A stretch of 13,819 nucleotides of DNA from a virus (lineage: Duplodnaviria; Heunggongvirae; Uroviricota; Caudoviricetes). Position numbers: made by a program. The stretch lies in IMG/VR virus record IMGVR_UViG_2534681934_000027; one strand, written 5' to 3'. Positions 6,001-12,000 of the stretch are shown here, one piece after another (position 1 is the first letter of the stretch; each line of letters opens with the position of its first letter).

Positions 6001-9000
6001 GGCCGGCTTCCTGGCTAAACATCAAAAAGGCGATGTTGCCAGCGTATCCGGCACGATGCAGGTAAGCCAGTGGACCGGACAGAACGGAGAAACGCGGCAG
6101 GGCTGGCAGGTTATCGCAGACAGCGTAATCAGTGCCCGCGCGGCACGTCCAGGCGGGAACAGACGCAAAACCACAGGCACACAGGGTAATCAGCCACCAG
6201 CGGGAGGCGATGACCCTTACGGTGATGATATTTCGTTCTGAGGGGGTGACGATGGTACATGACCGCATAGCGGAGGAACTGGAGGCGAAAGGCTTTTACC
6301 GGAGGGCGGCGGCGCGATGGGGTGAAGTCATGCAGCTGGTGGAGACAGACAAGGAACGGCATCACATCACGATGCGACGGCTGGAATGTTCAAGGAAGGC
6401 ACAGAGGGCACCGGAGCCGCCGGATAATTTCGGAGACCTGAAAAAGGCAGTCGATCGCACTTATGCCGAAATGGGTATAGATGGTGCTGGTGATGAAATA
6501 TGGCGCAATTACCAGGACAGCTAATCAAACAGCCGGAGAAATCCGGCTTTTTTTGCACCAGTTGAAACGGTATGGCGCATTACCGGGTTTTCGTCACGGT
6601 CAGGCATAGTTACTATCTGAAACAAACAGACACAACAGAGGAAAAAACAATGCCGATGAAATTTGATGAGATATTAAAACAGCGTGATAAATACCATGCT
6701 GACAACATGGAGACGATGAGCATCAATGATTACCGCGCATTCCTGGAGACGGGCGCACTGATTGAAAAGGATCAGCATGGTTTTGTGAGATGTGCTCTAT
6801 CCGGTGAAATGCTGGCGGTAAATCCTGAACAGATAGATGCATTGATAGAATTTCTGAAAGAGATCAGAGACTGAGCCAGCACACAGCACACATAGCCGGA
6901 GCAATCCGGCTTTTTTGCGCCCAAAAAAAGCCCGATAAGGTCAGAGGGTTCTTATCGGGCTTTTGCATATGAGGTTTTTGGATGCACTGGCGTTCGTGAT
7001 CGGGATAATCATTTCATAATTTGCAACATAACTCAATATCATTGCATAAAATGCAATTCTGATTATAATCAGGACTGGATAAACATCCAGTTATGATTTT
7101 TTTAGTCGAAGAGGAATTTCTTACTATGGCTGAAGAGAAAAAAAGCGGTGTTTCGGTGTACATAAGCCCCGAAATCGTGGAGGTGCTCAAGCAGCGCCAC
7201 AAAAAAAACTATGAAGCTGGCGTTGCGGCTGGACTGGATCCGCTGATGACGCCGGAGCCGTCGATAGGTTCACTTGTACGCTCTTATTTACTTGCGGCGC
7301 TTGGGATGCATAAAAATTATGGGGGTGAATAATGGCAGGCAAAGCAACGGCACTTAACACTAACCAGCTTTTCATGTACCTGAATCGCGGGGATATTGCG
7401 GATTTTAAATTCAGCCCTCTGTTTACCACGCTGTTTTTCCCGAACGTGGCGACATTCAGCACGCAAAACATCATGCTGGATACCCTGGACATTGAAGAAG
7501 TCACCATGTCGGCGTTTTGTTCGCCTATGGTGGGTAGCCAGGTTCAGCGCGATAAAGGGTACGAAACCAGCACAATCAAACCTGGCTACATGAAGCCAAA
7601 GCACGAAATCGATCCAACGAAAACCATCATGCGCATGGCTGGAGAAGATCCGGCACAGCTTAACGACCCTACCTATCGCCGTATGCGCCTGATTACTGGC
7701 AACATGCGCCGCCAGATAAACGCCATTAAGGCACGCGTGGAATGGCTGGCGGTGAATGCGGTAACGACCGGAAAAAACATCATTGAGGGCGAAGGCATAG
7801 AACGCTATGAAATCGACTGGAAAATACCGGAAAACTGCATCATAGAGCAGGCCAAGGGTAAAAAATGGTCCGAGCAGGATAAAGACATGCACGACCCAAT
7901 CTATGACATCGAGCTTTATGCTGATCAGGCTGGTTGCCCCGCAAACGTCATGATTATGGGCGCTGAGGTATGGCGCACATTACGCAGCTTTAAAAAATTC
8001 CGTGAGCTGTACGATCTTTCCCGTGGTTCAGAATCCGCCGCCGAACTGGCCTGTAAAAACCTGGGCGAAGTGGTGAGCTTTAAAGGCTATCTTGGTGATC
8101 TGGCCCTTATCGTCTATTCCGGCAAATACACTGACAGCGATGGTACCGAAAAATATTTCCTTGAGCCTGATTTGCTGGTCCTGGGTAACACCAACAATAA
8201 AGGGCTGGTGGCCTATGGTGCGATAATGGATCAGGAAGCGGTAAGAACGGGCGCAACACAAAACATGTTTTACCCGAAAAACTGGATTGAGGACGGCGAT
8301 CCGGCGATTGAGTACGTGCAGACACACAGTGCACCGCAGCCGGTACCGGCAGATATTCGCAAATTTGTTACCGTCAAAATTGGTTAACGGGGGGATTCTA
8401 TGGACACTCCATACATTGAGTTATTTGCAGGCAGTCAGCAGGTATCCACGACGTTGGTACATTTTGCCGCTGATGCTGGCGTTATTCAGGAATTTACCCC
8501 GCTGATGCTGGCAGACAATGGCGAGTTTAAGCCGTGGGATGGTCAGGAATCTGGCAAGGCTGTTTATCTGACCTCGTACCCTGTGGACACGTCAAAGCAG
8601 AAATCAGCACAGTGTTACAAGACGGGGATATTCAATATTGCCGCCGTTAACTGGCCTGAGAGCGTCGACACCGATGCGAAAAAATGCGCCGCCTTTGCGG
8701 GTTCCGGCGTATCCGTTCAGCCGCTGGCCCGATAAGCAGGGGGAACGATGGCAACGAATGAAAGCATCATGACGCTACCGCTGGCGAGTAAATTTAAAGT
8801 CGAAGCGCGGGCAATGGCTGACAGAGGTTTATCAACCTATGAGGCCGTATATCAACTAAACAAACTGGAAGAGCAGGACAAGCCGTGCGCTGATGCGATT
8901 ATGGCGCTTCATGAGCATAAAGACTATCAGCCGCTGTTGCGTGCAATGGCAAACGTGCCTTGTATCGATGTTGGTACGGCTAAAAGCATCCTTAGCATGA

Positions 9001-12000
9001 CCATAGAGCAGGAACGTCCGAAGGTTGCGCCGGAACTTACCGCAGCCTTTGAAAACTTTATGGACATGCACAGCCCGCAAGCCGTATCAGCTGGCATGGC
9101 ATACGATGGCAGAAACCAGGGCGATGACGGCGACATCGATCGCATACTGAAAACCATCTGAGACAAGGCCGGAGAAATCCGGCTTTTTTACGGGTCCTTC
9201 CTGGAATTATGGCCCGTTACGGGGCGGCGACCTCGCGGATTTTCGCTATTTATGAGCCTTTTCAGGGTGGTGGTGGTGGTTTTGTTGTTTGATCTATCTT
9301 TATGAATGAAAAGGGAAAGATGCAAGCAATACACCAACCTGAAGCAGTAATTAAGTTGGTGTATTAATGAAATCTCATCTGATGAACAAAAAAACATGGC
9401 GAAAAGCTGCCGTGTAAGTGCGACAGCGTTCGACAAGTGGGGAGTAACTCCCGTTGAGCGTAAAGGCCGTGAGGCGTTTTATGATGTTGCCAGCGTGATA
9501 GAAAATAGGGTTAACAATGCAATTAGCCAGCTTATAAACGACAAAGGCGAGATTGACGATGATGAACTTTTACGAGTCAGGATCAGATTACTGACAGCAC
9601 AGGCAGAGGCGCAGGAACTTAAAAACGATCGCGATCGCGGTGACGTGATTGATACTGAGTTTTGCCTGTACGCGCTTTCAAAGCTGGCGAGTCAGATTTC
9701 ATCAATCATGGACAGCCTCCCGCTTACTATGCAAAGGAGCTTCCCACAGATTACCCCCGCCATGCTGGACAGGCTTAAAAGGGAAGTGGTTAAAGCCTGT
9801 AATGCCAGTGCCAGAGTTGCCGACATGAACCGCCCCGGGTTTCCTGGAGAGTGTTTTATCTGTGAACTCAGGCTGCCAGATCATCGTTTCCGATGGAAGC
9901 ATAATAAGCTTTTTCTGCTTCTGCCGGAGGAGTATGGCCCAGCCTTCCCAGCAATCGTCGATTGTTATACCAGTCCACCCACGTTAGTGTGGCCAGTTCC
10001 ACTTCTGCACGGTTTTTCCAGCTCTTACGGTGTATTACCTCCGCTTTGTAAAGACCATTGATGCTCTCAGCCATCGCGTTGTCATACGAGTCGCCTGTAC
10101 TCCCTGTTGATGCCAGTAATCCGGCTTCTTTTAGTCGCTCCGTATAGGCCAGTGACACATACTGAGAGCCTTTATCGCTGTGATGGATGGTGCCAGACGG
10201 ACGACGGGCCCACAACGCCTGCTCCAGCGCATCCAGCACGAATGTCGTTTCCATAGACGATGAGACCCGCCACCCCACGATGTATCCGGCAAACACATCA
10301 ATGATAAACGCCACATAGACGAAGCCCTGCCATGTGCTGACGTAAGTAAAATCAGCCACCCACAGCTGGTCAGGTCGTTCTGCCACGAACTGACGGTTTA
10401 CGCGGTCGCCTGCGGCAACGGCTTTCCGGCTGATGGTCGTACGGACCTTTTTACCCCGGAGAACACCGGCAAGTCCCATAACCGCCATGAGACGTGCCAC
10501 TGTACATCTGGCCACCCTGATTCCTTCCCGTAACAACTGACGCCAGACTTTACGCACACCGTACACCTGATGATTTTCATCGTATACGCGCTGTATCTCT
10601 CTCTTCAGCCAGTCGTCGTGCTGCGCACGGGCACTGCGTTTATCCGGATGATGTCGCTGTTGCTGACAATGGTAATACGTTGACGGGGCAATATGCAGTT
10701 CGCTGCATACCGGTCCGACCCCGTACTGCTCACGCAGCTTATCCAGCAGTGGCATCATTTTTTCCAGAGGCGGTCGAACTCCGCCTTCGCAAAATAAGCG
10801 GAAGCCTGGCGAAGGATATCGTTACTGCGGCGCAGTTCACGATTTTCACGTTCCAGCTCTTTCAGACGCTGACGTTCAGCGCTGGTGAGCCCACCATCAC
10901 CGCCCCCGGTATCCCGCTCATGCTGGCGAACCCAGACACGCAGAGTCTCCGGCGTACAGCCAATCTTTGGGGCAATGGAACAAATTGCCGCCCACTGTGA
11001 GTCATATTCATCCTGACTTTCCAGAACCATACGAATCGCCCGCTGACGGACTTCGGGGGAAAAACGAGTATTTTTAGTCATCCTGTTTACCTCTTTCTCA
11101 GGGAGTTTAGTCTCCAGGATTTCCGGGGCGGTTCAACAACCTCCCACAGATACTGGCTGATTACTTGAAAGAAACAACCGGAAACGTACCGGAAAAGTTG
11201 CTACAGAAGAAAGGCGAGTAACAGACGCGCAATTATTGAACAAAAATGAGAAAGGATCTGATAATGGCATTTTCTGGCTAAAATGCCTCGTGTCAGATCC
11301 TTTCTTTTTTTAATATTTTCATTGTTAAACAGTCTGTTACAGAGAAGAAGATCGGATCTGACTTTTGCCGGAAAATTCTCATAAACAGATAAAAACCGCG
11401 AGGTCGCCGCCCCGTAACGGGCCATAATTCCAGGAAGGACCCGACGACACCAGACTATCAGAGCGATGGGGGCACAATGACAGAAGCCGAACTACTGGGA
11501 TTAATCCGCCGCGTCGCCGGAATCAGCCAGCAGCATGACGAACAGGCCACACAGCCGGACAGCGTGACCGCTGAAAATTATGTGCGTGTTGTAGCGGAAG
11601 TGATGCGCCGTGATGGTATAGAACTTAATGGCGTTGATATGCGCAACATACGGAACCGCGTTCTTGAAATGCTGGCCTACAATCGCCGCGTTGAACTGTA
11701 TCGGGAGAAAGAAAAAATAACGTACCACTGGAAGAAGCCGGAACGGCTGCGGCGGTAACTTGCTGATATTCCCGATAACGCAAAATTGCGCTGGCTACAT
11801 CCTCACATCTGAGGACTGTTAATCAGAAGGCCGGAATATATTCACAAACTACGAAATTTTCGTAGTTTAATTAATGGTCAGATTAATCGCTAACCCGCTG
11901 ATATTTTCGGAAACCTCAATTTGAGGAAGTCGGAAGCGTCACCCTTCATATTCTGAATGGTCATAATGACCACGCAGACCATCAAGGCAACCACAACGAA

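What the first reader, a model, noticed from the sequence alone, without database searches (positions are those of the whole stretch)
7093..9161. Island encodes only the lambda-type capsid shell pair (E-like and D-like), in reversed order
A major capsid protein and a decoration protein are present without portal, scaffold, protease or large terminase. In lambda-type heads D precedes E; here E precedes D, flanked by two small unknown proteins (68 and 137 aa). One hypothesis is that the satellite supplies its own shell proteins to build or resize capsids on a helper portal/scaffold, an alternative to P4 Sid-type or SaPI CpmAB-type size redirection. That a lambda-sized shell is about four times larger than this island needs is a general argument, not a calculation from this sequence.
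Basis: partly seen in the sequence, partly recalled or inferred. Interest (0 to 1): 0.8.

Follow-up and report, generated by a model that had tools for sequence, protein, structure and literature searches.

The report
Known satellite capsid genes, function unresolved

Summary
Window 7332-8387 encodes a full-length lambda gpE-type coat protein and 8400-8735 a gpD-type decoration protein, in E-then-D order. No portal, protease or large terminase is present.

It is not new. The island is a PICI at the same roxA/phoQ site as EcCICFT073. The four genes are orthologues of c1498-c1501, and the coat orthologue has a crystal structure (3BQW). Fillol-Salom et al. 2018 deleted c1499 and c1500. [quoted passage not shown]

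What I add:
- The 137-aa protein is a stand-alone homologue of the C-terminal scaffold (Nu3) domain of lambdoid C/Nu3 proteins (hhalign 98%). A Lelliottia PICI has a full protease-scaffold gene at that position.
- E-then-D order held in all 15 satellite loci examined, while all seven phage or prophage comparators have D-then-E.
- Satellite E proteins cluster apart from phage E (at most 47.5% identity to any phage record).
- dN/dS is 0.06-0.15, so these are not remnants.

Best guess is an auxiliary shell kit that is redundant with a wild-type helper. Capsid resizing is disfavoured. In this copy the terS-like gene is split by an IS element.

The parts
1..1230 (+). PICI tyrosine integrase. This is the left end of the island; the attL repeat lies about 47 bp upstream of the window.
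   Evidence: Pfam Arm-DNA-bind_3 and Phage_integrase. The same roxA/phoQ site and the same 21-bp att repeat are found in EcCICFT073.
1605..1793 (+). AlpA-family regulator, a hallmark of Gram-negative PICIs.
   Evidence: PF05930, E 5.4e-17.
3982..5382 (+). RepA/AAA_25 replication helicase. It stands in place of the primase of EcCICFT073.
   Evidence: PF13481, 2.4e-43; PHROG 2850.
6894..6916 (+). Hairpin-plus-T-run terminator that closes the upstream cassette. It marks the 5' boundary of the capsid operon.
   Evidence: Terminator scan; sequence.
7126..7332 (+). 68-aa protein, orthologue of c1498, function unknown. Its stop codon overlaps the E start (ATGA). The motif GGVSVYISPDIV is conserved across satellites.
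   Evidence: PHROG 3255. Alignment A2. No phage match. AF2 pLDDT 70 with an extended N-terminal segment and two helices, but no Foldseek match. Not gpW. It is exchanged independently of E.
7332..8387 (+). Lambda gpE-type major capsid protein, orthologue of c1499 / PDB 3BQW.
8400..8735 (+). gpD/SHP-type head decoration protein, orthologue of c1500. Satellite-specific features: a C-terminal VSVQPL motif and an N-terminus about 3-7 residues shorter than in phage D proteins.
8748..9161 (+). 137-aa stand-alone homologue of the C-terminal scaffold (Nu3) domain of lambdoid C/Nu3 protease-scaffold proteins, orthologue of c1501. It has two IMxLPxA...A(K/R)xxL repeats, an FENFMDMHSPQAV motif and an acidic tail.
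   Evidence: PHROG 53 C-terminus, 4.7e-9. tblastn to Nu3 of PhiR12 phages, 4e-5. BLASTP to the CFT073 helper C/Nu3, 37% over 83 aa, 3e-10. Colinear alignment. hhalign probability 98.2%, E 3.5e-14. A full protease-scaffold gene occupies this position in the Lelliottia PICI.
9167..9189 (+). Hairpin-plus-T-run terminator directly after the 137-aa gene. It marks the 3' boundary of the operon.
   Evidence: Sequence GCCGGAGAAATCCGGCTTTTTT.
9191..9266 (+). cos1. The cosN sequence GGGCGGCGACCT at 9222-9233 is identical to lambda cosN, while the cosB side diverges.
   Evidence: Functional in EcCICFT073 (PMC6092414).
9396..9825 (+). 5' part of the Nu1-like small terminase gene (180 aa when intact), interrupted by the IS.
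   Evidence: PF07471, 2e-22; 38% identical to lambda Nu1 residues 35-175. Intact copy in strain FRIK2455.
9826..11135 (-). IS3-family element (IS1203/IS629-like) with 25-nt terminal inverted repeats and a 3-bp target duplication (ACA).
11139..11221 (+). 3' remainder of the terS-like gene.
   Evidence: Exact 86-nt suffix match to the intact gene.
11368..11443 (-). cos2, inverted relative to cos1. cosN is at 11401-11412, and the cosB side is more lambda-like.
   Evidence: Known from EcCICFT073.
12252..12272 (+). attR copy of the 21-bp att repeat. This is the right end of the island.

Best explanation
The region is the morphogenesis cassette of an EcCICFT073-type Gram-negative phage-inducible chromosomal island (PICI) inserted between roxA and phoQ.

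It is one terminator-bounded operon of four genes:
- a 68-aa protein of unknown role, translationally coupled to the next gene;
- a full-length lambda gpE-type coat protein;
- a gpD-type cement protein;
- a 137-aa stand-alone copy of the C-terminal Nu3 scaffold domain.

These are the satellite's own, old and divergent versions of the lambda head components I recall being needed in the highest copy numbers. The low-copy parts (portal, protease, connectors, TerL, tails) must come from a lambdoid helper.

Proposed mechanism, which is inferred and not shown. After helper induction the cassette is expressed. The coat protein assembles, alone or mixed with helper E, on helper portal with the scaffold-like protein. 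The shell expands on packaging and is cemented by the satellite's D. Packaging starts at the island's cos site and takes a concatemer of about four 11-kb units, so heads are phage-sized and not resized. With a wild-type helper this supply is redundant, which would explain the null phenotype of the published deletions. It would matter when the helper's shell genes are limiting, defective or interrupted, as with helper-embedded PICIs that sit inside helper E, portal or terminase genes.

In this particular copy the terS-like gene is broken by an IS, so the island is probably packaging-impaired.
For: Identity and homology.

Same island type and att site as EcCICFT073. Gene-for-gene correspondence with c1498-c1501.

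Active genes, not remnants:
- NG86 dN/dS for E is 0.061-0.13 and for D 0.10-0.15. A phage E pair gives 0.086.
- All three genes have strong Shine-Dalgarno sequences.
- The cassette is present in 597 of 5426 complete E. coli genomes and full length in 591.

Old satellite lineage:
- No phage among 50,697 records has an E more than 47.5% identical.
- Satellite E proteins group together (bootstrap 72) apart from the phage clade (bootstrap 100).
- 36 E columns show clade-specific conserved differences.

Conserved block:
- E-then-D order was seen in all 15 satellite loci examined, from Escherichia, Salmonella, Edwardsiella, Serratia, Lelliottia and two unassigned read-archive contigs. The seven phage or prophage comparators, including the adjacent helper prophages, have D-then-E.
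- E and D co-diverge (r = 0.90, Mantel 0 of 2000).

A cement protein is only useful on an expanded, DNA-filled shell (my recollection of lambda gpD biology, not checked here). This argues for real capsid incorporation.

A Lelliottia PICI carries E-D plus a full protease-scaffold gene, so there is a graded series towards capsid autonomy.

Seven of the satellite loci are embedded in or abut prophage late genes (PMC10111431).
Against: - No experiment shows these proteins in particles.
- In EcCICFT073, deleting c1499 or c1500 left transfer unchanged. Replacing c1499 with cat gave higher transfer. Any structural role is therefore dispensable with wild-type helpers.
- The satellite E is only 42-47% identical to helper E proteins and shows no tendency to track its own helper's E. 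Co-assembly is therefore uncertain.
- The third gene is not universal. It is absent in some lineages and replaced by an AlpA-family gene in others.
- At whole-database scale the 137-aa protein alone does not reach phage scaffolds. That link rests on profile comparison, targeted pairwise comparison and synteny.
Confidence: 0.4

Rival explanations
1. Capsid size redirection, in the manner of SaPIbov5 Ccm or SaPI1 CpmB. The divergent coat protein, or the short scaffold-domain protein competing for the coat-binding site of the helper's Nu3, forces small shells that hold one 11-kb island and exclude the 48-kb helper genome.
For: - A satellite-encoded coat homologue resizes capsids in SaPIbov5, and PmCI172 makes small capsids and encodes a coat homologue (PMC6893505, PMC6092414).
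- The 137-aa protein shares the C-terminal FExFMxxHSPxAV motif and tail with the helper scaffold but is shorter. This recalls CpmB, which competes with the helper's scaffolding protein (eLife 2017, cited; the shared C-terminus is my recollection).
- The island is about 1/4.4 of the lambda genome length.
Against: - With lambda as helper and an island carrying the intact cassette, all packaged DNA was phage-sized. The tetA marker was inserted after the c1501 stop codon, so c1501 was intact.
- No 'PICI monomer' band appeared on induction in CFT073.
- Deleting c1499 or c1500 did not relieve interference with lambda.
- Expressing the single genes did not inhibit lambda or phi80.
Confidence: 0.15
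2. Anti-phage interference. The proteins act as poison subunits or decoys that spoil head assembly of non-helper lambdoid phages competing in the same cell, which protects the host and the satellite.
For: - PICIs commonly carry interference functions in this region.
- Strong conservation without a transfer phenotype would fit a role that shows only against particular phages.
- The proteins are divergent but still homologous to phage E, D and Nu3.
Against: - No inhibition of lambda or phi80 when the genes are expressed singly. Interference maps to rpp (c1503).
- Deletion mutants still block lambda.
- A decoration protein and tight E-D co-inheritance are not expected for a simple poison subunit.
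Confidence: 0.12
3. Functionless leftovers of a head module captured from a helper and now drifting.
For: - No phenotype was found for c1499 or c1500.
- The 137-aa gene looks like a truncated version of a protease-scaffold gene.
- This copy of the island already carries an IS in terS.
Against: - dN/dS of 0.06-0.15 is as low as for functional phage coat genes.
- The ORFs are intact in 591 genomes and in several genera.
- The satellite sequences form a separate cluster at no more than 47.5% identity to any phage, which implies long retention.
Confidence: 0.04
4. A non-structural role. For example, the coat, cement or scaffold-like proteins titrate a helper factor (protease, scaffold or chaperone) or act as a signal that times the satellite cycle, without entering particles.
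For: - The third gene is replaced by an AlpA-family regulator in several lineages.
- The upstream 68-aa protein has a weak ribbon-helix-helix-like pattern. Together these hint at regulation within the cassette.
Against: - The full HK97-fold coat is conserved over its entire length, with 93 columns shared with phage E. This is more than a binding decoy would need.
- There is no evidence for any such interaction.
Confidence: 0.08

Closest known systems
EcCICFT073 c1498-c1501 (Fillol-Salom et al. 2018, ISME J, PMC6092414)
   Same: Same chromosomal site and att repeat. Same four-gene cassette in the same order: E 96%, D 98% and the 137-aa protein 96% identical. Two inverted cos sites are present in both.
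   Different: - The 68-aa protein is only 66% identical.
- This island has a RepA-type helicase in place of the primase.
- It has a Nu1-like TerS (IS-disrupted here) in place of RppA.
SaPIbov5 Ccm (coat-protein homologue encoded by a satellite)
   Same: A satellite carries a diverged homologue of its helper's HK97-fold coat protein.
   Different: - Ccm is required for small-capsid formation and blocks the helper.
- The orthologous E-like gene here has no such phenotype, and with lambda the DNA is packaged at phage size.
- Ccm comes without a decoration or scaffold partner.
Capsid-forming PICIs (cf-PICIs, e.g. EcCIEDL933)
   Same: A PICI backbone (int, alpA, rep) combined with its own capsid genes that form lineages separate from phage genes.
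   Different: - cf-PICIs encode the complete set: coat, protease, portal, connectors, HNH, TerS and TerL. They make their own small capsids and need only helper tails.
- This island has only coat, cement and a scaffold domain of the lambda type.
SaPI1 CpmB (alternative internal scaffold)
   Same: A short satellite protein related to the helper scaffolding protein. Competing scaffolds are the title of the eLife 2017 paper cited; the shared C-terminal part is my recollection.
   Different: CpmB has been shown to redirect capsid size. No size change is seen for the E. coli island. The 137-aa protein retains two scaffold repeats and travels with its own coat gene.
P4 Psu (satellite-encoded capsid decoration protein; own knowledge, not checked here)
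   Same: A satellite supplies its own capsid-stabilising decoration protein.
   Different: Psu is unrelated in sequence to gpD. It decorates shells made of helper P2 coat protein that have been resized by Sid.
Helper-embedded PICIs, e.g. 11capE (PMC10111431)
   Same: The same E-D cassette family. Loci L010 and L011 are of this type. The authors report a capsid gene in 21 of 29 reference Gram-negative PICIs.
   Different: Those elements sit inside helper late genes and carry an AlpA-family gene after D in place of the scaffold-like gene. The window's island is chromosomal.

Membership tests
Gram-negative PICI (EcCICFT073 type) | int at one end, then alpA, then a replication gene with downstream ori, with genes reading in one direction | tested here: met
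   int 1-1230, alpA 1605-1793, RepA helicase 3982-5382, SSB. All are on the + strand.
Gram-negative PICI (EcCICFT073 type) | Size of 10-20 kb, flanked by att repeats at a PICI-specific site | tested here: met
   The 21-bp repeat flanks the island in L001 and L005. The island is 11.2 kb in CFT073 and about 11.0 kb here without the IS. The roxA/phoQ site is the same.
Gram-negative PICI (EcCICFT073 type) | No lysis or tail genes; packaging by cos site plus Rpp or TerS | tested here: met
   No tail or lysis families were found. There are two cosN sites identical to lambda cosN and a Nu1-like TerS.
Gram-negative PICI (EcCICFT073 type) | Induction and high-frequency transfer by a helper phage | not testable with these tools
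   Shown for EcCICFT073 only. This copy has an IS in terS.
Lambda gpE major capsid protein family (PF03864) | Full-length match above the Pfam gathering score | tested here: met
   170.7 bits against a cut-off of 22.9, covering 16-328 of 329 profile positions. 43% identical to gpE over 327 aa.
Lambda gpE major capsid protein family (PF03864) | HK97 fold | tested here: met
   The close match PDB 3BQW (E 9e-232) is a solved structure, and other authors use it as an HK97-type and molecular-replacement model.
Lambda gpE major capsid protein family (PF03864) | Assembles into an icosahedral shell | not testable with these tools
   No particle data exist for this protein in the papers read.
gpD/SHP head decoration family (PF02924) | Full-length match above the gathering score, with core motifs (TPLM, WDG, YKxG, WP, AFxG) conserved | tested here: met
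   65.7 bits against a cut-off of 29.1. Alignment with six phage D proteins.
gpD/SHP head decoration family (PF02924) | Binds as trimers to the expanded shell | not testable with these tools
   The N-terminus is about 3-7 residues shorter than in phage D proteins and a VSVQPL tail is added. The consequence is unknown.
Lambdoid C/Nu3 scaffold domain | Sequence homology to the C-terminal scaffold part of C/Nu3 | tested here: met
   hhalign probability 98.2%, E 3.5e-14, 125 columns. PHROG 53, 4.7e-9. BLASTP 3e-10. A single-sequence search of 1.8 billion proteins does not reach phage C/Nu3.
Lambdoid C/Nu3 scaffold domain | Linked to an S49 protease domain, or nested in its reading frame | tested here: not met
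   The 137-aa ORF stands alone with no protease. The Lelliottia PICI does have the full 447-aa protease-scaffold gene at this position.
Capsid-forming PICI (cf-PICI) | Encodes portal, protease, head-tail connectors, TerL (and HNH) as well as coat | tested here: not met
   None of these families is found in the window.
Ccm/CpmAB/Sid-type size redirection | Satellite-sized DNA and small capsids that depend on the satellite gene | not testable with these tools
   Published data for the orthologous cassette show phage-sized DNA only and no phenotype for the deletions.

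The most novel reading that the evidence does not exclude
EcCICFT073-type PICIs are partial capsid formers. Their own coat, cement and scaffold-domain proteins build complete satellite-specific shells on a borrowed portal. This would make the satellite independent of the helper's E, D and Nu3 genes and able to exploit defective prophages, or helpers whose late genes it has itself interrupted. It would be an intermediate state between classical PICIs and cf-PICIs. The reversed E-D-scaffold order would be the signature of one ancient acquisition.
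Probability: 0.3. Interest if true: 0.65.

Novelty: already known. Interest (0 to 1): 0.35.

Why it matters
The presence of coat and decoration genes in E. coli PICIs has been published since 2018, so the finding itself is not a discovery.

What remains is a real puzzle. This version of the cassette (about 90% nucleotide identity or more) is found in about 11% of complete E. coli genomes and is under selection as strong as on functional phage coat genes. Yet it has no phenotype in the assays done so far.

The analysis here sharpens that puzzle in three ways:
- the cassette is a three-part kit (coat, cement, scaffold domain);
- its reversed gene order held in every satellite locus I examined;
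- its coat protein clusters apart from the phage coat proteins compared.

It also points to the one assay not yet reported: PICI transfer from helpers that lack E, D or Nu3. A positive result would place these islands between classical PICIs and capsid-forming PICIs.

Tried and rejected
- **Scaffold-less background idea, rejected.** I suspected the published c1499/c1500 deletions were made in a strain where the tetA marker disrupted c1501. The primer sequences in the supplement show the cassette was inserted immediately after the c1501 stop codon, so the ORF was intact.
- **68-aa protein as gpW, rejected.** Both are 68 aa, but hhalign gives probability 0.4%.
- **68-aa protein as a ribbon-helix-helix regulator, unconfirmed.** The AF2 topology is compatible. 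Foldseek found no match with E of 0.001 or better, and only one of seven homologues touches Pfam RHH_1, at E 0.2.
- **AF2 model of the 137-aa protein, unusable.** It is all-helical but has pLDDT 45, too low for a fold search.
- **The search for related loci with the E-like protein in genome contigs found nothing**. I got genomic contexts from the look-up of encoding contigs.
- **Single-sequence phmmer of the 137-aa protein** against 1.8 billion representatives returned only satellite relatives plus one 195-aa protein. The link to scaffolds needed profiles.
- **L014 as evidence for a non-lambda helper, rejected.** This PICI sits inside a contractile-tail sheath gene, which seemed to argue for a P2-type helper head. 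Myovirus prophages with lambda-type head genes and P2-type tails exist.
- **NCBIfam** gave nothing for any of the four proteins.

Full report
**1. What is in the window**

The window is a complete phage-inducible chromosomal island (PICI) lying next to phoQ. The same sequence occurs in many E. coli O157:H7 and related genomes, between roxA and phoQ.

Layout:
- integrase, 1-1230
- AlpA regulator, 1605-1793
- small ORFs, including an Icd-like protein and a DUF4222 protein
- RepA/AAA_25 helicase, 3982-5382
- SSB, 5831-6241
- PerC-family regulator, 6252-6524
- the region of the finding, 7093-9161
- a cos site
- a Nu1-like small terminase gene, split by an IS3-family element
- a second, inverted cos site
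- a 93-aa ORF
- the attR repeat, 12252-12272
- phoQ

No tRNA gene is present.

**2.

- 7332-8387 encodes a 351-aa protein that matches Pfam Phage_cap_E over its whole length (E 5.5e-50) and PHROG 29 (1.5e-107). It is 43% identical to lambda gpE over 327 residues.
- 8400-8735 encodes a 111-aa protein that matches Pfam HDPD (5.1e-18) and PHROG 49. It is 36% identical to gpD, and its best solved relative is the head decoration protein 1TD0, which resembles the phage-21-type D of the CFT073 helper.
- E precedes D on the same strand. Lambda has C/Nu3, D, E.
- None of the other ORFs hits portal, protease, connector or large-terminase families.
The att repeats give 11.2 kb for the CFT073 island and about 11.0 kb for this one without its IS, against 48.5 kb for lambda.

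**3. It is already known**

The island is a sibling of EcCICFT073. It has the same att repeat, the same site and the same late cassette.

The supplement of Fillol-Salom et al. 2018 lists the CFT073 genes:

| CFT073 gene | Length | Label in the supplement |
|---|---|---|
| c1498 | 68 aa | none |
| c1499 | 351 aa | capsid |
| c1500 | 111 aa | none |
| c1501 | 137 aa | none |

The window's proteins are 66%, 96%, 98% and 96% identical to these, in that order. The c1499-type protein even has a crystal structure, PDB 3BQW, which the window's E matches at E 9e-232.

That paper names c1499 and c1500 as a putative capsid protein and a head decoration protein, and it reports the following:
- Deleting either gene does not restore lambda plaque formation on a strain carrying the island.
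- Deleting either gene does not change transfer by the resident helper.
- With lambda as helper, all packaged DNA was phage-sized.

The follow-up paper found that, among the genes after the ori expressed one at a time, only c1503 (RppA) inhibits lambda and phi80. A review repeats the point about the capsid homologue. A later survey reports a capsid gene in 21 of 29 reference Gram-negative PICIs. The two inverted cos sites are also described and were shown to function. I found no later paper in the library that assigns a function to the pair.

**4.

Several results point the same way:
- It hits the C-terminal end of PHROG 53, the protease-scaffold family (4.7e-9).
- tblastn finds the C-terminus of the C/Nu3 fusion of lambdoid PhiR12 phages (37-39% over 83 aa, 4e-5).
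- BLASTP against the C/Nu3 protein of the icd-integrated lambdoid prophage of CFT073 gives 37% over 83 aa, E 3e-10. The authors of PMC10111431 state that the EcCICFT073 helper is integrated at icd. The more distant 141-aa version from another PICI aligns over 132 aa with the last 130 residues of that protein (3e-6).
- The whole 137 aa are colinear with the last 140 or so residues of phage C/Nu3 proteins. Shared features are two copies of an IMxLPxA...A(K/R)xxL repeat, an F-E-x-F-M-x-x-H-S-P-x-A-V motif and an acidic tail. Lambda's own Nu3 end has the same architecture with one repeat.
- A profile-profile comparison of the satellite family against the phage scaffold domains gives probability 98.2%, E 3.5e-14 over 125 columns.
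- In a Lelliottia PICI the position after D is occupied by a full 447-aa S49 protease-scaffold gene, 50-57% identical to phage C proteins.

Caveats:
- Alone, the 137-aa sequence does not reach phage scaffolds in an exhaustive search of 1.8 billion proteins.
- Its AF2 model is helical but of low confidence.
- It has no protease domain.

So the cassette encodes coat, cement and a scaffold domain, not 'only the shell pair'.

**5. The 68-aa protein stays unknown**

- Its stop codon overlaps the E start, and it has a conserved GGVSVYISPDIV motif.
- It has no phage homologue.
- AF2 gives an extended N-terminal segment plus two helices (pLDDT 70), but there is no fold match.
- It is not gpW.
- It recombines independently of E. 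Identity is 66% where E is 97%, and 99% where E is 62%.

**6. The cassette across satellites**

I looked at fifteen satellite loci: the window, CFT073, and contigs from E. coli, Salmonella, Edwardsiella, Serratia, Lelliottia and two unassigned read-archive assemblies. Each has the int-alpA-replication backbone or, for the shortest contig, the matching downstream genes.

- In every one, E is followed within about 0-15 nt by D. One contig even has E and D fused in a single ORF.
- The seven phage or prophage comparators have D then E, including the helper prophages next to the satellites.
- The gene after D varies:
  - Nu3-like, 134-141 aa (window, CFT073 and four other E. coli loci)
  - full protease-scaffold (Lelliottia)
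  - an AlpA-family protein (six loci)
  - nothing (three loci)
- Seven of these loci lie inside or next to prophage late genes. This matches the helper-embedded PICIs already described.

**7. An old satellite lineage under selection**

- Satellite E proteins are 49-96% identical to one another and at most 47% identical to the four phage E proteins compared. Those phage proteins are 58-94% identical to one another.
- No record among 50,697 phage genomes exceeds 47.5% identity to the window's E, or about 45% to its D.
- In a neighbour-joining tree the satellite sequences form one cluster (bootstrap 72) beside the lambdoid phage clade (bootstrap 100), with no mixing.
- 93 columns are conserved across both groups. 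36 are conserved within each group but differ between them. Satellite D proteins share a C-terminal VSVQPL motif and have an N-terminus about 3-7 residues shorter than phage D proteins.

Pairwise Nei-Gojobori dN/dS values:

| Gene | Pair | dN/dS |
|---|---|---|
| E | window vs L016 (dS 0.88) | 0.089 |
| E | two Salmonella-type alleles | 0.061 |
| E | window vs CFT073 | 0.13 |
| D | three satellite pairs | 0.10-0.15 |
| phage E | one phage pair | 0.086 |

- E and D divergences are tightly correlated (r = 0.90, 0 of 2000 permutations). This shows co-inheritance but does not by itself prove co-adaptation.
- The cassette occurs in 597 of 5426 complete E. coli genomes at about 90% nucleotide identity or more, and is full length in 591.
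- All three genes have strong ribosome-binding sites.
- Hairpin terminators bound the operon at 6894-6916 and 9167-9189.

'Inactive remnant' is therefore very unlikely.

**8. How it most likely works**

Shown: the identities of the proteins, the conservation of the cassette and the selection on it.

Inferred: everything about assembly.

As I recall lambda head composition, the cassette holds the parts needed in the highest copy numbers (coat, cement, scaffold) and lacks those needed in few copies. A cement protein is useful only on an expanded, DNA-filled shell (my recollection of gpD biology, not checked here). This argues that the coat protein ends up in real heads.

The published null phenotypes were obtained with wild-type helpers, which supply their own E and D. 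They rule out an essential role and, with lambda, resizing. They do not test whether the satellite proteins can replace or supplement helper shell proteins.

My best explanation (confidence 0.4) is an auxiliary shell kit that builds or joins full-size heads on helper portals. About four island units fit one lambda-sized head. The kit is redundant with a healthy helper and would be useful when helper shell genes are limiting, defective or interrupted.

Rivals:
- size redirection with natural helpers, 0.15
- interference with non-helper lambdoid phages, 0.12
- a non-structural role, 0.08
- decay, 0.04

**9. A check that changed my mind**

I first thought the published deletions had been made in a strain where tetA disrupted c1501. 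The primer sequences show that the cassette was inserted right after the c1501 stop codon. I dropped that objection, and the published negative results stand.

**10. State of this copy**

The Nu1-like terS gene is 180 aa when intact in strain FRIK2455. Here it is split at 9825/9826 by a 1310-bp IS3-family element with a 3-bp target duplication. This island is therefore probably impaired for its own packaging, although the capsid cassette is 100% identical to that of many O157:H7 strains.

**11. Verdict**

Of the interpretation, the homology, the non-remnant status and the reversed order are supported. The 'no scaffold' claim is wrong, and published data disfavour the resizing idea. The finding is already in the literature. 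Interest is modest: the unresolved function is a real open question, and the scaffold-domain identification and the consistent reversed order sharpen it.

Noticed in passing
window 9826-11135 (flanks 9823-9825 and 11136-11138): An IS3-family element (IS1203/IS629-like, orfA/orfB on the minus strand) is inserted in the Nu1-like terS gene. It has 25-nt terminal inverted repeats and a 3-bp target duplication (ACA). Strain FRIK2455 has the gene intact but carries an IS in or next to the integrase region.
   Followed up: yes
window 9384-9395: The A-run just upstream of the terS start has 7 A here and 8 A in FRIK2455. This shifts whether the upstream ATG (9367) is in frame, so the annotated start differs between strains.
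   Followed up: partly
window 9191-9266 (+) and 11368-11443 (-): Two cos regions form a 76-nt inverted repeat (91% complementary), each with a cosN identical to lambda's. They face each other across the terS gene. cos2 keeps more lambda-like sequence on the cosB side than cos1. Two functional cos sites were already reported for EcCICFT073.
   Followed up: yes
L019 9409-10752 (Lelliottia sp. SL45 contig): A PICI that carries, after E and D, a full 447-aa S49 protease-scaffold (lambda C-like) gene, 50-57% identical to phage C proteins. This is a step further towards capsid autonomy than the E. coli islands.
   Followed up: partly
L015 661-2052 (Logan contig SRR32490199_83292): A single 463-aa ORF fuses the E-like and D-like domains (Pfam PF03864 plus PF02924). 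It may be a true fusion or an assembly or sequencing error.
   Followed up: no
L014 2292-11978, flanked by 1-2167 and 12260-17032: A Salmonella PICI with the E-D cassette sits inside the tail sheath gene of a contractile-tailed prophage; the C-terminal sheath fragment is at 12260-13165. The published helper-embedded PICI sites as quoted in the passages I read were in lambda-cognate late genes, so a sheath-gene site may be additional. The island also carries a 534-aa coiled-coil protein with no family match.
   Followed up: partly
L009-L011, L013-L015 (gene after D, e.g. L009 9402-9746): In several PICI lineages the slot after D holds a second AlpA-family (PF05930) gene of 114-145 aa in place of the scaffold-like gene.
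   Followed up: no
window 7126-7332 versus 7332-8387: There is a recombination boundary at the 68-aa/E junction. The 68-aa protein is 66% identical to the CFT073 one while E is 96-97% identical. Conversely, L016 and L007 share a 98-99% identical 68-aa protein but only a 61-62% identical E.
   Followed up: yes
window 6531-6548, 6894-6911, 9167-9183: Nearly the same terminator hairpin (GCCGGAGAAATCCGGC / GCCGGAGCAATCCGGC) recurs three times. It separates the PerC cassette, the 100-aa ORF cassette and the capsid cassette.
   Followed up: no
window 6252-6524: A PerC-family transcriptional activator (PF06069, 3.9e-43) lies just upstream of the capsid cassette. PICI-borne PerC and RgdR regulators of the LEE island are discussed in the 2018 paper.
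   Followed up: no
L020 (GenBank ON470596, 'Escherichia phage vB_EcoM-569R10, complete genome'): This 19.9-kb record starts with the host gene yecA and ends inside a terminase gene. It looks like a prophage fragment, not a complete phage. It combines lambda-type head genes (W, portal, C/Nu3, D, E, FI) with P2-type contractile tail genes.
   Followed up: partly
window 8748-9161 and relatives P0061-P0083: NCBI names many copies of the 137-aa protein 'phage head-tail connector protein', although no NCBIfam model matches it. The homology found here is to the scaffold domain, so the name looks misleading.
   Followed up: partly
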